Shown here one piece after another: positions 4,395 through 30,637 of a stretch of DNA of 64,000 nucleotides (positions are counted from its first letter, which is position 1; each line of letters opens with the position of its first letter). The position numbers and the translations under genes were made by a program. Below the pieces are notes generated by a model, which was not told where the DNA came from, made no database searches, and saw only the letters and a program-made list of their open reading frames with translations. The DNA is from an uncultured Anaerolineales bacterium (lineage in GTDB: Bacteria > Chloroflexota > Anaerolineae > Anaerolineales > UBA11858): contig CAZIFI010000003.1 in NCBI GenBank assembly GCA_964539105.1, positions 39,202 through 103,201 on the forward strand, written 5' to 3'.

Positions 4395-5984
4395 ATGTCC
4401 ACTCTCATACTCAACAACGCCCGCATATATACTTTAGATCCCTCCCGTCCCCGCGCCTCGGGAATGGTGATCTCTAATGGGGTCATCACCCGGCTCCTGG
4501 ACCGGGAAAGGAGCAGCGTTGACATCCCCGGGACTGAAAGGGAAGATATGGATGGCAAGACCATCCTTCCGGGATTGAGCGATGCCCACATCCATCTCAA
4601 AGAGTATGCCCTCAACCTGAAAAAAATCAACTGTGAAACCGGGACCAAAGACGCGTGCCTTCAGCGGGTTGCCCAACGCGCCGCCAAACAACCACCCGGG
4701 ACCTGGATCCTGGGCCACGGATGGAATCAAAACTCATGGCGGGATGGATATGGGACCCGGGCCGAGCTGGACGCGGTCGCCCCCCGGCATCCTGTGTATC
4801 TGACAGCCAAATCTCTGCATGCTGCCTGGGTTAACTCTGCTGCCCTGCAGGAAGCCGGGCTGCATGAGGACACGCCTGATCCAGCGGGAGGGAGATTGTC
4901 ACGGGACCCGCAGGGAAAACTGGGCGGACTTTTATTTGAGAAAGCCATCCCGCTTGTGGCAGATAACATCCCTGAACCGGATCTCCAGGAGATTAAATCC
5001 GCCATGCAGGACGCCCAGCGCTCCCTGTGGAAAATAGGTCTAACCGCTGTCCATGATTTCGACCGCCGGTTGAGCTTTTCAGCCCTTCAGGAACTCCACC
5101 AAGAGGGCAAACTGAAGCTGCGGGTGACGAAGAGCCTTCCCGTGGATGACCTGGACGGCGCCCTGCAAGTGGGGCTGAGAAGCGGATTTGGCACTCCTCT
5201 CCTCCATGTGGGCAGTATAAAAGCCTTCGCCGATGGCGCCCTGGGCCCCCAGACCGCAGCCATGATTGCCCCTTACCATGGTACAGACAAGGACCGGGGG
5301 ATTCAAATGCTGGAGGAAGAAGACATCCTGCAGTTCAGCTTGAAAGCCGCTGAACATGGTTTGAGTATGGCCATTCACGCCATCGGTGACCGCGCCAACC
5401 GCACGGTGTTGAACGCATTTCAGCGGGTGCGAGAACAAGAGGAAAAGCGAGATCTACCTTCCCTGCGGCACAGGATAGAACACGTGCAGCTGCTTCACCC
5501 GCAGGATGTGGGACGGCTGGCTGAGTTGAAAATTATCGCCTCCATGCAGCCCATCCACGCCACCTCAGATATGGATACCGCCCAACAGTACTGGGGAGAA
5601 AGAAGCCGGTACGCCTATGCCTGGCGGTCCTTGCTCGATCACGGCACCCGTCTGGCTTTCGGTTCGGATGCGCCGGTTGAGGTGCCAAATCCTTTCCTGG
5701 GGCTGTATGCTGCTGTCAGCAGGCGGAAACCTAACGGGGATACCGGGGGGGGAGAAGGCTGGGTTCCACAGCAGCGGATCAGCCTGATGGAAGCCCTACA
5801 GGCCTACACGACCGGCCCCGCCTATGCTGCCGGGAGGGAAGACCAACAGGGAAAGCTCATGCCCGGATACTGGGCAGATTGCATTGTTCTGGAGGAAGAC
5901 CCTTTTTCAACCCTCGCAGCACAGCTGCCTGATATGCAGCCGGTCCGGACCATGGTCAACGGCGAATGGGTCTGGCATCGTTAA
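4395..5984 (+). CDS. Metal-dependent amidohydrolase (Amidohydro_3 family)
   Basis: 529-aa ORF with N-terminal HxH metal ligands (SDAHIHLKEYA) and C-terminal amidohydrolase-3 motifs (AFGSDAPVE). Confidence 0.7.
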   Translation: MSTLILNNARIYTLDPSRPRASGMVISNGVITRLLDRERSSVDIPGTEREDMDGKTILPGLSDAHIHLKEYALNLKKINCETGTKDACLQRVAQRAAKQPPGTWILGHGWNQNSWRDGYGTRAELDAVAPRHPVYLTAKSLHAAWVNSAALQEAGLHEDTPDPAGGRLSRDPQGKLGGLLFEKAIPLVADNIPEPDLQEIKSAMQDAQRSLWKIGLTAVHDFDRRLSFSALQELHQEGKLKLRVTKSLPVDDLDGALQVGLRSGFGTPLLHVGSIKAFADGALGPQTAAMIAPYHGTDKDRGIQMLEEEDILQFSLKAAEHGLSMAIHAIGDRANRTVLNAFQRVREQEEKRDLPSLRHRIEHVQLLHPQDVGRLAELKIIASMQPIHATSDMDTAQQYWGERSRYAYAWRSLLDHGTRLAFGSDAPVEVPNPFLGLYAAVSRRKPNGDTGGGEGWVPQQRISLMEALQAYTTGPAYAAGREDQQGKLMPGYWADCIVLEEDPFSTLAAQLPDMQPVRTMVNGEWVWHR

Positions 5985-14835: not shown

Positions 14836-14922
14836 GGAGGGGTCGCATAGTTGGCCTAGTGCGCGCGCCTGGAGAGCGCGTATCCCTTCTGGGGATCGTG
14901 GGTTCGAATCCCACCCCCTCCG
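14836..14922 (+). tRNA. tRNA-Ser (anticodon GGA), class II with a long variable arm
   Basis: 7-bp acceptor stem GGAGGGG/CCCCTCC. T arm GTGGG-TTCGAAT-CCCAC. Anticodon stem CGCGC/GCGCG with loop CTGGAGA. Long variable arm ATCCC-TTCT-GGGAT. G at position 37 is atypical. Confidence 0.78.
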
Positions 14923-17547: not shown

Positions 17548-17650
17548 TAGCTTCGGGTGGGTCCGACGCGGCAGAGACCTATGAACCGTGTCAGGTCCGA
17601 GAGGAAGCAGCACTAAGTGGGATCCTCTGGGTGCCGTCGGTAAGCCTGCC
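17548..17650 (+). ncRNA. ffs: Signal recognition particle RNA (small 4.5S-type SRP RNA)
   Basis: Contains the near-universal domain IV motif GUCAGGUCCGAGAGGAAGCAGCA, matching the E. coli 4.5S GUCAGGUCCGGAAGGAAGCAGC. It lies directly downstream of a consensus promoter. The ends are approximate. Confidence 0.8.
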
Positions 17651-17684
17651 CGAGGCTGTTTCCCTTTGGTTCCCCGTACTTCCT

Positions 17685-29080: not shown

Positions 29081-29179
29081 AATCGTTTTCCCTCTCCCTT
29101 GATTCGCCTTGGCCCAAAAATAAAAAACAGGCAGATAATAATCTGCCTGTATTTTATCAGAGAATGTGTTCGGCGATGA

Positions 29180-29653
29180 TCACACGGTAATTTCTTCCGC
29201 GGCTTCAGGGATCTCATACTCCGCGTTTCGCAGACCTTTCTTGATATCAATCAGCGACTTGCGGCCGATCCCTTTCACATCAAGCATGGCCTTTTCACCA
29301 CCTTCCAGCACCTCAAGAATATCTGCCACGGTCTCTATGTCCGCGTCATTGAGCGCATTTGTAACCCGGGTGCCCAGGTCGAGGGTCTCTATCGAGACAT
29401 CAGCCGACTTCTTCTTCTCTTTGCGCTCCTGTTTCTCTTTTTGAATTTCCTCATGGACCTTCATCTTCTTGTAGAAGCGATCCACCTGACCTTCAGTGTC
29501 CACAATACGCTGTTCACCCGTAAAGAAGGGGTGGCATTCTGAGCACACGTCAGTCCGAATGGTTTCCTGGGTCGAGCCCGTTGTCCATGTATTGCCACAG
29601 GCGCAGATGACCTTGGCTTCTGGATAGTATGTAGGATGAATTTCCTCTTTCAT
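29180..29653 (-). CDS. rpmE: 50S ribosomal protein L31 (type A, Zn-ribbon) with a C-terminal RpoA alpha-CTD-like HhH extension
   Basis: The N-terminal ~65 aa are MKEEIHPTYY...CACG...CSECHPFFTG, a canonical L31. The C-terminal ~90 aa read LDLGTRVTNALNDADIETVADILEV...LDVKGIGRKSLIDIKKGL. This aligns with the RNA polymerase alpha C-terminal domain ([24 protein letters not shown]...[14 protein letters not shown]). Confidence 0.8.
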   Translation of the reverse strand: MKEEIHPTYYPEAKVICACGNTWTTGSTQETIRTDVCSECHPFFTGEQRIVDTEGQVDRFYKKMKVHEEIQKEKQERKEKKKSADVSIETLDLGTRVTNALNDADIETVADILEVLEGGEKAMLDVKGIGRKSLIDIKKGLRNAEYEIPEAAEEITV

Positions 29654-29669: not shown

Positions 29670-29927
29670 TTAATCAACCGGGATCACGTTAACCTGTTTC
29701 TTGCCGCCCCGGATGGTGCGGTAAGAAACCACGCCGTCAGCTGTGGCAAATAATGTGTCGTCCCCTCCCCGCCCGACGTTGAGACCCGGGTGGATGGGTG
29801 TGCCGCGTTGGCGTACCAGGATGTGGCCTGAGGTCACCTGCTGCCCGGCATATTTCTTGACACCTAATCGCTTTGATTCACTATCACGTCCGTTGCGGGT
29901 TGAGCCGCCGCCTTTTTTGTGAGCCAT
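29670..29927 (-). CDS. rpmA: 50S ribosomal protein L27
   Basis: [24 protein letters not shown] is the canonical L27 N-terminus. There is no Prp-cleaved extension. Confidence 0.95.
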
Positions 29928-29938
29928 CTTTCCACTCC

Positions 29939-30256
29939 CTATTCATTCACAATGTCATCAATTTTCAACAGCGTGTAACGCTGGCGATGACCTTGTCGTT
30001 TACGATATCGAACTTTTGGTTTATATTTGAAAACCAGTATTTTTCGACCTTTGATCTGGTCTTCTACCGTCGCCTTGACTTTGGTCTCTTCCAGGAAAGG
30101 CGTCCCGACTTGAAAATCATCGTCATCGGCCACAAACAATACGTCATCCATCTCTATTGTATCATCCACATCGAGGGATAAACGGTCGACACGGATCGTC
30201 TGGCCTGGCACAGCTTTATACTGCTTTCCACCGCTTTCTACTATGGCATATTTCAT
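29939..30256 (-). CDS. rplU: 50S ribosomal protein L21
   Basis: [24 protein letters not shown] is the canonical L21. Start at MKYAIV with a GGAGGAAAAAAG Shine-Dalgarno. Confidence 0.95.
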
Positions 30257-30637
30257 ACTTTTTTCCTCCAATCTTCACTTCACCGCCAGTGCTGCGTTTG
30301 GAGATTCCTCCCGCCGCACCCCGGGGAAGTTGGGGGGATTAACATCTTATTATGGCATTCAGGATCAGCTTTCCTAAATGCCGTGCCATTATACCAGGAA
30401 GGGAGATTCTGTCAATGAACCCCCTCCCATTCCTGCCAGACACGACAAAACAACACTGCCGTTTACACCAGCCTCCGCCCAAGTGACCTGATAATAGTTA
30501 GCCTGATACCTGAATCTTGTCACTACAGAAATCCGGCTTTTGTACGTATAATTCAGGGTGAGAAACAGGCATACATCAAACGCAGCATGGCTCCCTGCGG
30601 GCGAACCACTTTTCGGTTGTGATTATAAAGGAGGGGT

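What the first reader, a model, noticed from the sequence alone, without database searches (positions are those of the whole stretch)
29180..29653. Ribosomal protein L31 fused to an RNA polymerase alpha-CTD-like helix-hairpin-helix domain
The rpmE ORF encodes a canonical Zn-ribbon L31 of about 65 aa. It continues without a stop into a roughly 90-aa extension whose core reads LDLGTRVTNALNDADIETVADILEV..LDVKGIGRKSLIDIKKGL. This aligns convincingly with the DNA/UP-element-binding C-terminal domain of RpoA ([38 protein letters not shown]). A charged linker (KEKQERKEKKKSADVS) separates the two parts. L31 sits at the subunit interface near where mRNA exits, so a tethered nucleic-acid-binding or RNAP-interacting HhH module would be a new ribosome accessory feature. 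It could bear on transcription-translation coupling.
Basis: partly seen in the sequence, partly recalled or inferred. Interest (0 to 1): 0.62.

Follow-up and report, generated by a model that had tools for sequence, protein, structure and literature searches.

The report
Ribosomal protein L31 carrying RNA-polymerase αCTD
In this Chloroflexota bacterium and hundreds of its relatives, the ordinary ribosomal protein L31 has a real copy of the DNA- and partner-binding end domain of RNA polymerase's alpha subunit fused to it, a conserved combination that databases record but no searchable paper describes and whose job is untested.

Summary

It is not a sequencing artefact. At least 259 distinct full-length versions exist in independent assemblies, all labelled Chloroflexota (Anaerolineae, Ardenticatenaceae). 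It always sits in the rplU-rpmA-rpmE operon, where other Chloroflexota have plain L31. The extension is under purifying selection (ω ≈ 0.04-0.1).

The best-conserved polar residues of the extension are the equivalents of E. coli R265, G296 and K298, the αCTD DNA-contact residues. Spacer length is fixed (33 aa in 238/259) although spacer sequence drifts.

Function is untested. My best guess (~0.35) is a ribosome-anchored nucleic-acid/partner-binding module on the 30S head that links ribosomes to DNA or the transcription machinery. The main rival is docking on the ribosome itself.

Its "near the mRNA exit" placement is wrong: bL31's C-terminus ends on the 30S head at uS14/h41.

Public databases already record both domains, and some pipelines miscall the gene. 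I found no literature on it. I rate it a new variant of known parts, of moderate-high interest.

The parts
30388..30415 (-). Sigma-70-type promoter of the rplU-rpmA-rpmE operon (TTGACA-16-TATAAT, 12/12 matches, TG before the -10)
   Evidence: Consensus scan. Equivalent TTGACA/TATAAT pairs are visible upstream of rplU in L081, L004, L005 and L006. Function inferred, not shown.
30257..30381 (-). Structured 5' leader of the operon. It has an invariant outer helix that pairs CCAA with the UUGG next to the SD, and a variable inner hairpin
   Evidence: Single-sequence fold z = -3.0. The motif is conserved in 9 loci. RNAalifold finds 9 pairs with compensatory changes. No Rfam match at E<=1.
29939..30271 (-). 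rplU (bL21). The likely true start is the ATG at 30256, preceded by GGAGG
   Evidence: ORF list. Pfam Ribosomal_L21p is recorded on the syntenic genes in L081, L082 and L083. tblastn synteny.
29670..29927 (-). rpmA (bL27). Its stop lies 16 nt before the L31 start
   Evidence: ORF list and sequence. Pfam Ribosomal_L27 on the syntenic genes.
29180..29653 (-). rpmE-αCTD: the whole 157-codon CDS plus stop codon
   Evidence: Identical protein in an independent assembly.
29465..29653 (-). Residues 1-63: bL31 type A domain with Zn ribbon C17-x-C19...C37-x-x-C40
   Evidence: Pfam PF01197 E 3.3e-28. TIGR00105 87.9 bits (cut-off 38.35). PDB bL31 E 2e-20. Foldseek bL31 chains.
29405..29464 (-). Residues 64-83: charged K/E/R/Q-rich spacer, part of one long predicted α-helix (residues 56-83). 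Length is conserved, sequence is not
   Evidence: AF2 models predict helix 57-79 and 56-83, with pLDDT 86 at residues 61-70 in the second model. There are 33 residues between F60 and L93 in 238/259 family members, against mean column conservation of 0.44.
29228..29431 (-). Residues 75-142: RpoA αCTD-type double helix-hairpin-helix domain. It carries R96, N99, G130, K132 and S133, equivalent to E. coli R265, N268, G296, K298 and S299. It has a 3-4 aa insertion between the two HhH motifs
29183..29227 (-). Residues 143-157: the G(F/Y)xΦP end of the domain and the acidic tail EIPEAAEEITV (net charge -5), predicted disordered
   Evidence: tail net charge median -4 across 259 sequences. pLDDT below 50 at residues 149-157. 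ω = 0 for the tail in L001 vs L003.
29127..29150 (-). Intrinsic-terminator-like hairpin (10 bp, 5 GC) followed by TTTTTTATTTT, closing the three-gene operon before tdk
   Evidence: Sequence.

Best explanation
Shown (confidence about 0.97): this is the housekeeping rpmE gene of a Chloroflexota (Anaerolineae-type) bacterium. Its product is a complete zinc-binding bL31 extended by a ~28-residue charged α-helix, a genuine RpoA-family αCTD (double helix-hairpin-helix) domain and a short acidic disordered tail. It is transcribed with rplU and rpmA from a strong promoter. The fusion is old, is confined to Chloroflexota as far as I could see, and is kept by purifying selection.

Inferred mechanism (the confidence value below applies to this part):
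1. The bL31 part sits in the ribosome as usual, N-domain on the central protuberance and residues ~54-63 on the 30S head.
2. The fixed-length helix therefore projects the αCTD roughly 40 Å away from the uS13/uS19/uS14-h41 region of the head.
3. There the αCTD uses the same surface that RNA polymerase's αCTD uses on promoter DNA: R96, the G128-x-G130-x-K132-S133 hairpin, K138 and R142.
4. With that surface it holds double-stranded nucleic acid, most likely DNA, and/or a partner that normally recognises αCTD. This would physically link translating ribosomes to the transcribed chromosome or the transcription complex.
5. The acidic tail may mask the basic patch until a partner is met.
For: Identity:
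- Pfam, NCBIfam and PDB sequence matches.

Housekeeping orthologue:
- The same rplU-rpmA-rpmE operon occurs in 17 species representatives, in L081-L084, and in non-fused Chloroflexota L018 and L019.
- A promoter and a terminator frame the operon.

Selection:
- ω for the CTD is 0.064 and for the tail 0 (L001 vs L003). ω for the whole extension is 0.035 (L004 vs L006).

Nucleic-acid surface kept:
- Across 259 unique family members chosen only by whole-protein similarity, the best-conserved non-hydrophobic positions of the extension are R96 0.94 (= Eco R265), G128 0.98, G130 0.99 (= G296), K132 0.93 (= K298), K138 0.92 and R142 0.84.

Geometry:
- bL31's C-terminus ends at uS14/h41 on the 30S head (PMC9966373).
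- From established 30S structures, uS14 clusters with uS3 and uS10, proteins listed among the RNAP-contacting ribosomal proteins of the expressome (bioRxiv 10.64898/2026.09.09.750377).

Choice of domain:
- A folded, net-acidic αCTD with an acidic tail (net -3 and -5) is unlike the basic disordered tails that r-proteins usually use on rRNA.
- Fusion of a ribosomal protein to a piece of RNA polymerase suggests a functional link between the two machines (inference).
Against: - There is no experimental or structural evidence for any partner.
- The N268 equivalent is only 63% conserved. One clade (L008-L013) has Q at the R265 position, with an R two residues earlier.
- A strictly fixed spacer length (33 aa in 92% of sequences) is not needed for a loose DNA tether. 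It fits a defined docking site, which could be on the ribosome itself.
- Distances on the ribosome were reasoned from published descriptions, not measured on coordinates.
- I could not check that RpoA in these genomes keeps its own αCTD, or whether these bacteria couple transcription and translation at all.
- HhH domains can also serve purely as protein-protein modules.
Confidence: 0.35

Rival explanations
1. Ribosome-internal role. The αCTD docks at a fixed site on the ribosome itself: a 16S head helix, the A-site finger/5S region, or a neighbouring protein. There it reinforces or tunes bridge B1b and head swivel, much as lineage-specific r-protein extensions and mitoribosomal add-on proteins do.
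For: - Spacer length is invariant (33 aa in 238/259) while spacer sequence is free. That is the signature of a ruler reaching a fixed site.
- The local concentration of rRNA is very high for a ribosome-anchored domain (inference).
- The conserved basic residues could contact an RNA backbone.
- bL31 is already a bridge and stability element (PMC10931766, PMC9966373).
Against: - The domain and tail are net acidic.
- αCTD-type HhH motifs are known to read the B-DNA minor groove and phosphates, not A-form RNA (established knowledge of RpoA αCTD-UP element complexes).
- The AF2 models show no packing of the CTD against the L31 part (pTM 0.27-0.42). This says nothing about packing against rRNA.
Confidence: 0.25
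2. Moonlighting or decoy role. Free, unassembled L31-αCTD acts off the ribosome. It would compete with RNAP αCTD for UP-like DNA or activators, or bind the operon's own leader, so that r-protein surplus feeds back on transcription or translation.
For: - bL31 is a known autogenous repressor in gamma-proteobacteria (PMC7297116, as summarised in PMC10931766).
- The operon has a conserved structured leader that pairs with the SD region.
- The DNA-contact residues of αCTD are retained.
Against: - Nothing links the leader to this protein rather than to L21 or L27.
- The regex search matched the leader motif only in the nine loci of the 157-aa clade (window, L001-L006, L081, L082). The fusion is far wider.
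- A fixed-length rigid spacer is hard to explain for a free regulator.
- bL31's repressor activity in E. coli maps to its N-terminal segment, not to a C-terminal add-on.
Confidence: 0.12
3. Artefact or two genes: a sequencing or assembly error, or an internal start, so that L31 and a small αCTD protein are really made separately.
For: - Some NCBI records annotate only an 80- or 94-aa 'RNA polymerase alpha CTD domain-containing protein' at this locus.
- The window has an ATG at codon 64.
Against: - In those very records (L081, L082) the full 157-aa frame is open from the L31 ATG. The short products are start-site miscalls.
- Codon 64 is Leu in 96% of the family and has no SD in front.
- Hundreds of independent assemblies keep one frame.
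- No plain L31 is encoded elsewhere in the operon or the window.
Confidence: 0.02

Closest known systems
Bacterial ribosomal protein bL31, zinc-binding type A (E. coli RpmE, T. thermophilus L31; e.g. PDB 9t0z_4, 4v87_A4)
   Same: Residues 1-63 match end to end (E 2e-20, ~55-60% identity). They carry the CxC...CxxC zinc ribbon and the C-terminal GQVDRF segment that binds the 30S head. The gene lies in a ribosomal-protein operon.
   Different: Canonical bL31 ends at ~66-70 aa. This one continues for 90 more residues with a rigid helix, a folded αCTD and an acidic tail. In the family, 24 of 259 members have lost the zinc cysteines yet keep the αCTD.
C-terminal domain of RNA polymerase alpha subunit (RpoA αCTD; Pfam PF03118; B. 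subtilis 1z3e_B, T. thermophilus 1doq, E. coli 1lb2)
   Different: It is attached to a ribosomal protein instead of the α N-terminal domain, through a rigid fixed-length helix instead of a flexible linker. It has a 3-4 residue insertion between the two HhH motifs, an acidic tail, and no conservation of K271. By sequence it is closer to the Bacillota, Thermus and cyanobacterial αCTDs than to E. coli's (27 vs 13 bits).
Transcription-translation coupling bridges (NusG/RfaH KOW-uS10, NusA-uS2/uS5 in the expressome)
   Same: Only the proposed logic: one polypeptide that touches the 30S head on one side and the transcription machinery or DNA on the other.
   Different: There is no NGN, KOW or NusA domain. 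Here the bridge would be a permanent ribosomal subunit rather than a transcription factor. Nothing is demonstrated.
Other extended L31 proteins found in this search (long disordered tails of up to 290 aa; L31+DUF4332, P0162)
   Same: They share the same attachment point (after the 30S-head-binding segment) and a charged helix at the start of the extension. DUF4332 is also an HhH-type module (Pfam HHH_5 E 3e-11). Only one of them (P0256) carries a taxon label, Chloroflexi.
   Different: These have different or no folded domains. L018 (Anaerolineales) has only a charged helix plus an acidic tail, with no αCTD.
'DNA-directed RNA polymerase subunit alpha C-terminal domain-containing protein' (80-94 aa) in NCBI annotations of Anaerolineae MAGs (P0121, P0122, P0124...)
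   Same: It is the same gene, with 63-83% identity over the αCTD and tail.
   Different: These records start at an internal Leu or Met codon and drop the L31 part. The complete 157-aa frame is open in the DNA.

Membership tests
bL31 type A (zinc-binding L31) | Sequence match to the curated L31 models above their cut-offs | tested here: met
   PF01197 98.1 bits (cut-off 27). TIGR00105 87.9 bits (38.35). NF000612 96.4 bits (70)..
bL31 type A (zinc-binding L31) | Four-cysteine zinc ribbon (CxC...CxxC) | tested here: met
   C17, C19, C37 and C40 in the translation. Present in 235/259 family members.
bL31 type A (zinc-binding L31) | bL31 fold | tested here: met
   Foldseek top hits are bL31 chains of 70S structures, probability 1.00. 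The N-domain strands are predicted in both AF2 models.
bL31 type A (zinc-binding L31) | It is the genome's L31 at the orthologous locus (r-protein operon) | tested here: met
   rplU-rpmA-rpmE synteny is shared with the non-fused Chloroflexota L018 and L019. No second L31 in the 64-kb window. The whole genome could not be checked.
bL31 type A (zinc-binding L31) | Incorporated in the 70S ribosome as bridge B1b | not testable with these tools
   Needs ribosome proteomics or cryo-EM.
RpoA αCTD domain family (PF03118) | Sequence match above Pfam's gathering score over the whole domain | tested here: met
   50.9 bits against 23.8, profile positions 2-66 of 67. Also met in the divergent members P0135, P0137, P0138 and P0146, but below threshold in P0136.
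RpoA αCTD domain family (PF03118) | Compact four/five-helix double HhH fold of αCTD | tested here: met
RpoA αCTD domain family (PF03118) | DNA-binding '265 determinant' (E. coli R265, N268, C269, G296, K298, S299) | tested here: met
   In the window: R96, N99, A100, G130, K132, S133. In the family: R 0.94, N 0.63, G 0.99, K 0.93, S/A 0.92. The E. coli numbering rests on my recalled P0A7Z4 sequence, checked for R265, N268, G296, K298, S299 and E261.
RpoA αCTD domain family (PF03118) | Actually binds DNA (UP elements), activators or sigma | not testable with these tools
   Needs EMSA, pull-downs or a structure.
RNA polymerase alpha subunit (RpoA) itself | α N-terminal dimerisation/assembly domain preceding the CTD | tested here: not met
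   No RNA_pol_A_bac or RNA_pol_L match. The rpoA equivalog models are hit only over their last ~90 positions and far below cut-off. It is therefore not an RpoA.
NusG/RfaH- or NusA-type coupling factors | NGN+KOW or NusA S1/KH/AR domains | tested here: not met
   No such Pfam or NCBIfam hits. Any resemblance is functional hypothesis only.

The most novel reading that the evidence does not exclude
Anaerolineae-type Chloroflexota have built an RNA-polymerase αCTD into the ribosome. The domain is held at a fixed distance from the uS14/uS10/uS3 side of the 30S head. There it binds DNA or an αCTD partner (sigma region 4, an activator, NusA-like factor or RNAP itself). This would give these bacteria a ribosome-encoded, NusG-independent physical coupling of translation to transcription or to the nucleoid.
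Probability: 0.2. Interest if true: 0.85.

Novelty: new variant of a known kind. Interest (0 to 1): 0.58.

Why it matters
How ribosomes and RNA polymerase are physically connected in bacteria other than E. coli is an open question. The known connectors are transcription factors (NusG, RfaH, NusA) that bind the 30S head. Here a whole bacterial lineage has permanently attached a piece of RNA polymerase, the very domain that reads promoter DNA and receives activators, to a ribosomal protein whose C-terminus ends on that head. The residues αCTD uses on DNA are conserved in it. That gives a concrete, testable handle:
- a 75-residue domain to test for DNA, RNAP and rRNA binding;
- two point mutants (R96A, K132A);
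- one cryo-EM target.

If instead the domain docks on the ribosome, it is a clear case of a transcription-machinery domain recruited as a ribosome structural element.

There is also a practical consequence. Annotation pipelines sometimes call only the αCTD half, so L31 goes 'missing' from these genomes and a spurious small 'RNAP alpha CTD protein' appears.

Tried and rejected
- **Sequencing error or read-through.** Rejected: identical protein in an independent assembly, and hundreds of full-length homologues.
- **Separate αCTD protein from an internal start.** Rejected. The annotated 94- and 80-aa products (P0121, P0122) lie inside intact 157-aa frames. Codon 64 is Leu in 96% of the family.
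- **Extra paralogue rather than the housekeeping L31.** Rejected by synteny with plain L31 in L018 and L019. A second L31 elsewhere in the genome could not be excluded.
- **rpoA in the window or fetched loci.** I looked for it to test whether RpoA keeps its own CTD. tblastn with E. coli RpoA found nothing, only the fusion's own CTD in three loci. The weak hit at 5307-5405 lies inside a 529-aa ORF that I did not characterise further, and I treated it as noise.
- **Tracing the origin of the domain.** The CTD-only search returned just truncated versions of the same gene and no RpoA. Whether the domain was duplicated from Chloroflexota rpoA therefore remains open.
- **Fusions outside Chloroflexota.** In the exhaustive representative search, only about five 50%-identity clusters plus fragments cover both domains. 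Every one that carries a taxon name is Chloroflexota.
- **Rfam leader or other RNA at the locus.** None found at E<=1.
- **Literature.** Eight completed full-text searches, combining L31/bL31/rpmE with αCTD, fusion, Chloroflexi, expressome and the Pfam accessions, found no description of the fusion. Yutin et al. 2012 does not mention it.
- **First conservation count discarded.** That count selected sequences with a GxGxK regex and was circular. I redid it without that filter.

Full report
**1. What is in the sequence**

On the minus strand, window 29653-29180 is a single ORF of 157 codons plus a stop. It starts at an ATG with an AGGAAGGA Shine-Dalgarno 4-5 nt upstream, 16 nt after the stop of the preceding gene.

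Pfam gives two domains above their curated cut-offs:
- Ribosomal_L31, residues 1-63, E 3.3e-28.
- RNA_pol_A_CTD, residues 75-142, E 1.3e-13, 50.9 bits against a cut-off of 23.8, covering 65 of the model's 67 positions.

NCBIfam L31 equivalogs pass their cut-offs. The rpoA equivalogs match only over their C-terminal ~90 positions. A sequence search of PDB chains finds bL31 of many ribosome structures (E 2e-20) and, separately, the αCTD of B. subtilis RpoA (E 4e-6).

**2. Structure**

I made two AlphaFold2 models, from a 30-sequence and a 118-sequence alignment. Both give the same secondary structure:
- the three short strands of the L31 zinc ribbon;
- a low-confidence stretch at residues ~45-55, which in real ribosomes is the segment crossing the subunit gap;
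- four short helices (95-103, 109-117, 120-124, 131-143);
- a disordered tail (149-157, pLDDT below 50).

**3. Not an artefact, and not a side copy**

The identical protein is encoded on an independently assembled contig, Logan SRR7048227.

A search of 5.8 billion protein clusters lists 120 full-length (157-168 aa) homologues at 73-97% identity. All have both Pfam domains precomputed, and they come from ENA, JGI, NCBI and Logan. A profile of four divergent members lists another ~115 proteins of 147-183 aa. Every hit that carries a taxon name is Chloroflexota: Anaerolineae, Anaerolineales, Ardenticatenaceae or 'Chloroflexi bacterium'.

An exhaustive HMMER scan of 1.84 billion cluster representatives finds only about five 50%-identity clusters, plus fragments, that cover both domains. 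The family is thus numerous but phylogenetically compact.

In the GTDB species-representative genomes, 17 loci (L001-L017), all Chloroflexota MAGs, carry the fusion.

In all of these, and in L081-L084, the gene follows rplU and rpmA. In most it is followed by tdk and hpt, as in the window. Two Chloroflexota without the fusion have their L31 at exactly the same place after rplU-rpmA: L019 (Dehalococcoidia, 68 aa) and L018 (Anaerolineales, 127 aa with a charged helix and acidic tail only). The fused gene is therefore the orthologue of ordinary rpmE.

In the window the three genes are framed by two elements:
- a perfect TTGACA-16-TATAAT promoter at 30415-30388;
- a hairpin plus T-run terminator at 29150-29127.

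**4. Selection and anatomy of the extension**

Where synonymous divergence is not saturated, ω is low:

| Pair | L31 part | Spacer | αCTD | Tail | Whole extension |
|---|---|---|---|---|---|
| L001 vs L003 | 0.026 | 0.33 | 0.064 | 0 | 0.105 |
| L004 vs L006 | not computable | 0.045 | not computable | not computable | 0.035 |

I took 259 unique family members chosen only by whole-protein similarity. An earlier selection that used a motif regex was discarded as circular. Results:
- Weighted column conservation is 0.80 for L31, 0.44 for the spacer, 0.62 for the αCTD and 0.50 for the tail.
- The number of residues between F60 and L93 is exactly 33 in 238 of the 259 sequences.
- The tail is always acidic: net charge median -4, range -15 to 0.
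- 235 sequences have the four zinc cysteines. The 24 that lack them, such as P0146 in L083/L084, still carry the αCTD.

Apart from hydrophobic core positions, the best-conserved residues of the extension are R96 (0.94), G128 (0.98), G130 (0.99), K132 (0.93), K138 (0.92) and R142 (0.84).

I aligned the family to E. coli, B. subtilis and T. thermophilus αCTDs. The E. coli sequence was recalled from memory, and its landmark residues were checked. The equivalences are R96 = R265, N99 = N268, G130 = G296, K132 = K298 and S133 = S299. Together these form the '265 determinant' through which αCTD contacts UP-element DNA (established knowledge of RpoA).

Three points weaken or qualify this:
- N99 is only 63% conserved.
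- One clade (L008-L013) has Q at position 96, with an R two residues earlier.
- K271, conserved in the three reference RpoA sequences, is not conserved here.

The family also has a 3-4 residue insertion between the two HhH motifs.

**5. Where the domain would sit**

According to published descriptions, bL31's N-domain binds 5S rRNA and uL5 on the central protuberance. Its C-terminal part binds the 30S head, passing uS13 and uS19 to uS14, and its C-terminus lies on 16S helix 41 (PMC9966373; PMC10931766).

The segment that does this in E. coli (GRVDRFNKRF) corresponds to residues 55-64 here (GQVDRFYKKM). The long helix therefore leaves the head near uS14. A 28-residue helix is about 40 Å long.

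From established 30S structures, uS14 clusters with uS3 and uS10. These are among the ribosomal proteins reported to contact RNAP or NusG in expressomes (as listed in bioRxiv 10.64898/2026.09.09.750377).

The start point is the top of the head, nearer the entry and RNAP-docking side. I could not measure distances on coordinates.

**6. Mechanism: what I commit to and how firmly**

Shown:
- the gene's identity, architecture and operon;
- its phyletic spread and the purifying selection on it;
- retention of the αCTD DNA-contact residues;
- the fixed spacer length and the acidic tail.

Inferred: the function.

I rank first, at about 0.35, that the ribosome-anchored αCTD binds double-stranded nucleic acid, most likely DNA, and/or a protein that normally recognises αCTD. 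This would tie translating ribosomes to the transcription complex or nucleoid, with the acidic tail as a possible intramolecular mask. The reasons are:
- the conserved surface is exactly the DNA-reading one;
- the domain is net acidic (-3, tail -5), unlike typical rRNA-binding extensions;
- the start point is next to the head proteins used in coupling;
- fusion of parts of two machines usually signals a functional link.

A moonlighting or decoy regulator is possible (about 0.12). An artefact or two-gene reading is essentially excluded (0.02). The remaining probability is for functions I have not thought of.

**7. Comparison with what is known, and novelty**

As a family member, the N-terminal part is a bona fide type-A bL31. 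The C-terminal part is a bona fide member of the RpoA αCTD domain family. The protein is not an RpoA, because it has no α N-terminal domain. It is not related to NusG, RfaH or NusA.

The combination is already visible in public data:
- both Pfam domains are stored for these proteins;
- NCBI and JGI name them L31;
- some NCBI records call only the last 80-94 residues, as 'RNA polymerase subunit alpha C-terminal domain-containing protein'. I showed this to be a start-site miscall inside an intact 157-aa frame.

Eight full-text searches and a check of the 2012 phylogenomic survey of r-proteins found no description or discussion of the fusion. Subscription-only papers are not covered.

I therefore classify it as a new variant of known kinds: real, conserved, undescribed as far as I can tell, and with a testable but unproven link to transcription-translation coupling.

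**8. Side observations**

Other L31 proteins recovered by the representative search carry other C-terminal extensions:
- disordered tails of up to 290 aa;
- one L31+DUF4332 (another HhH-type module) fusion, P0162.
Only one of these (P0256) carries a taxon label, Chloroflexi.

The operon's 5' UTR is a conserved structured leader with compensatory base changes and no Rfam match. It is a candidate new r-protein leader.

Noticed in passing
window 30257-30381 (-); also L001 3325-3391, L003 3325-3392, L004 3269-3338, L005 3328-3397, L006 3269-3337, L081 5124-5192, L082 594-661: A conserved structured 5' leader lies in front of rplU: CCCCAACUUCCCC, then a ~40-nt variable hairpin, then GG(U/C)GAAGUGAAG(A/C)UUGGAG, then 5-9 nt, then AUG. 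The invariant outer helix pairs CCAA with the UUGG abutting the Shine-Dalgarno. The inner hairpin shows compensatory changes at 9 of the 23 predicted pairs (8 sequences). Single-sequence fold z = -3.0. No Rfam family matches at E<=1. It is a candidate new ribosomal-protein autoregulatory leader.
   Followed up: partly
L081 5812-6285 and L082 1270-1743: Public annotations call only a 94-aa (P0121) or 80-aa (P0122) 'RNA polymerase subunit alpha C-terminal domain-containing protein' here, starting at an internal codon. The full 157-aa L31-αCTD frame is open. L31 is therefore silently missing from those genome annotations.
   Followed up: yes
P0162 (240 aa, JGI metagenome protein; no locus fetched): This is an L31 fused to DUF4332 (PF14229, E 2.6e-40), another helix-hairpin-helix-type module (HHH_5 E 2.8e-11). 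It suggests HhH domains were added to the L31 C-terminus more than once.
   Followed up: partly
P0148, P0155, P0159, P0164, P0165, P0168, P0178, P0218, P0256 (190-290 aa): Many L31 proteins closely related to the query carry long low-complexity K/R/P/A/E-rich C-terminal tails with no Pfam domain. P0256 is labelled Chloroflexi. The L31 C-terminus seems to be a hot spot for extensions among these relatives.
   Followed up: partly
L083 / L084 8001-8450 (P0146, 149 aa): This is a divergent subfamily in which the L31 part has lost all four zinc cysteines but the αCTD is kept. The gene overlaps the rpmA stop by 4 nt. The operon lies next to a divergently transcribed relA/spoT-family gene instead of the oxidoreductase cluster seen in the window.
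   Followed up: partly
L018 1355-1738 (Anaerolineales MAG): At the same rplU-rpmA-rpmE locus, this 127-aa L31 has the charged helix and a long acidic tail but no αCTD. This is either a secondary loss of the domain or the ancestral state into which the αCTD was inserted.
   Followed up: no
window 30388-30415 (-): A 12/12 match to the sigma-70 consensus (TTGACA-16-TATAAT, with TG before the -10) drives the r-protein operon. Similar TTGACA/TATAAT pairs precede rplU in L081, L004, L005 and L006.
   Followed up: partly
window 17555-17654 (+) and 14836-14922 (+): A bacterial small SRP RNA (65.9 bits) and an 87-nt tRNA hit (coordinates only; the isotype was not determined).
   Followed up: no
L008-L017, downstream of tdk: These more distant fusion-bearing genomes have two tandem hpt (phosphoribosyltransferase) copies after tdk. 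The window and L001-L007 have one copy followed by a gene whose L081 counterpart carries poly(A)-polymerase/tRNA-nucleotidyltransferase (CCA-adding-type) Pfam domains.
   Followed up: no
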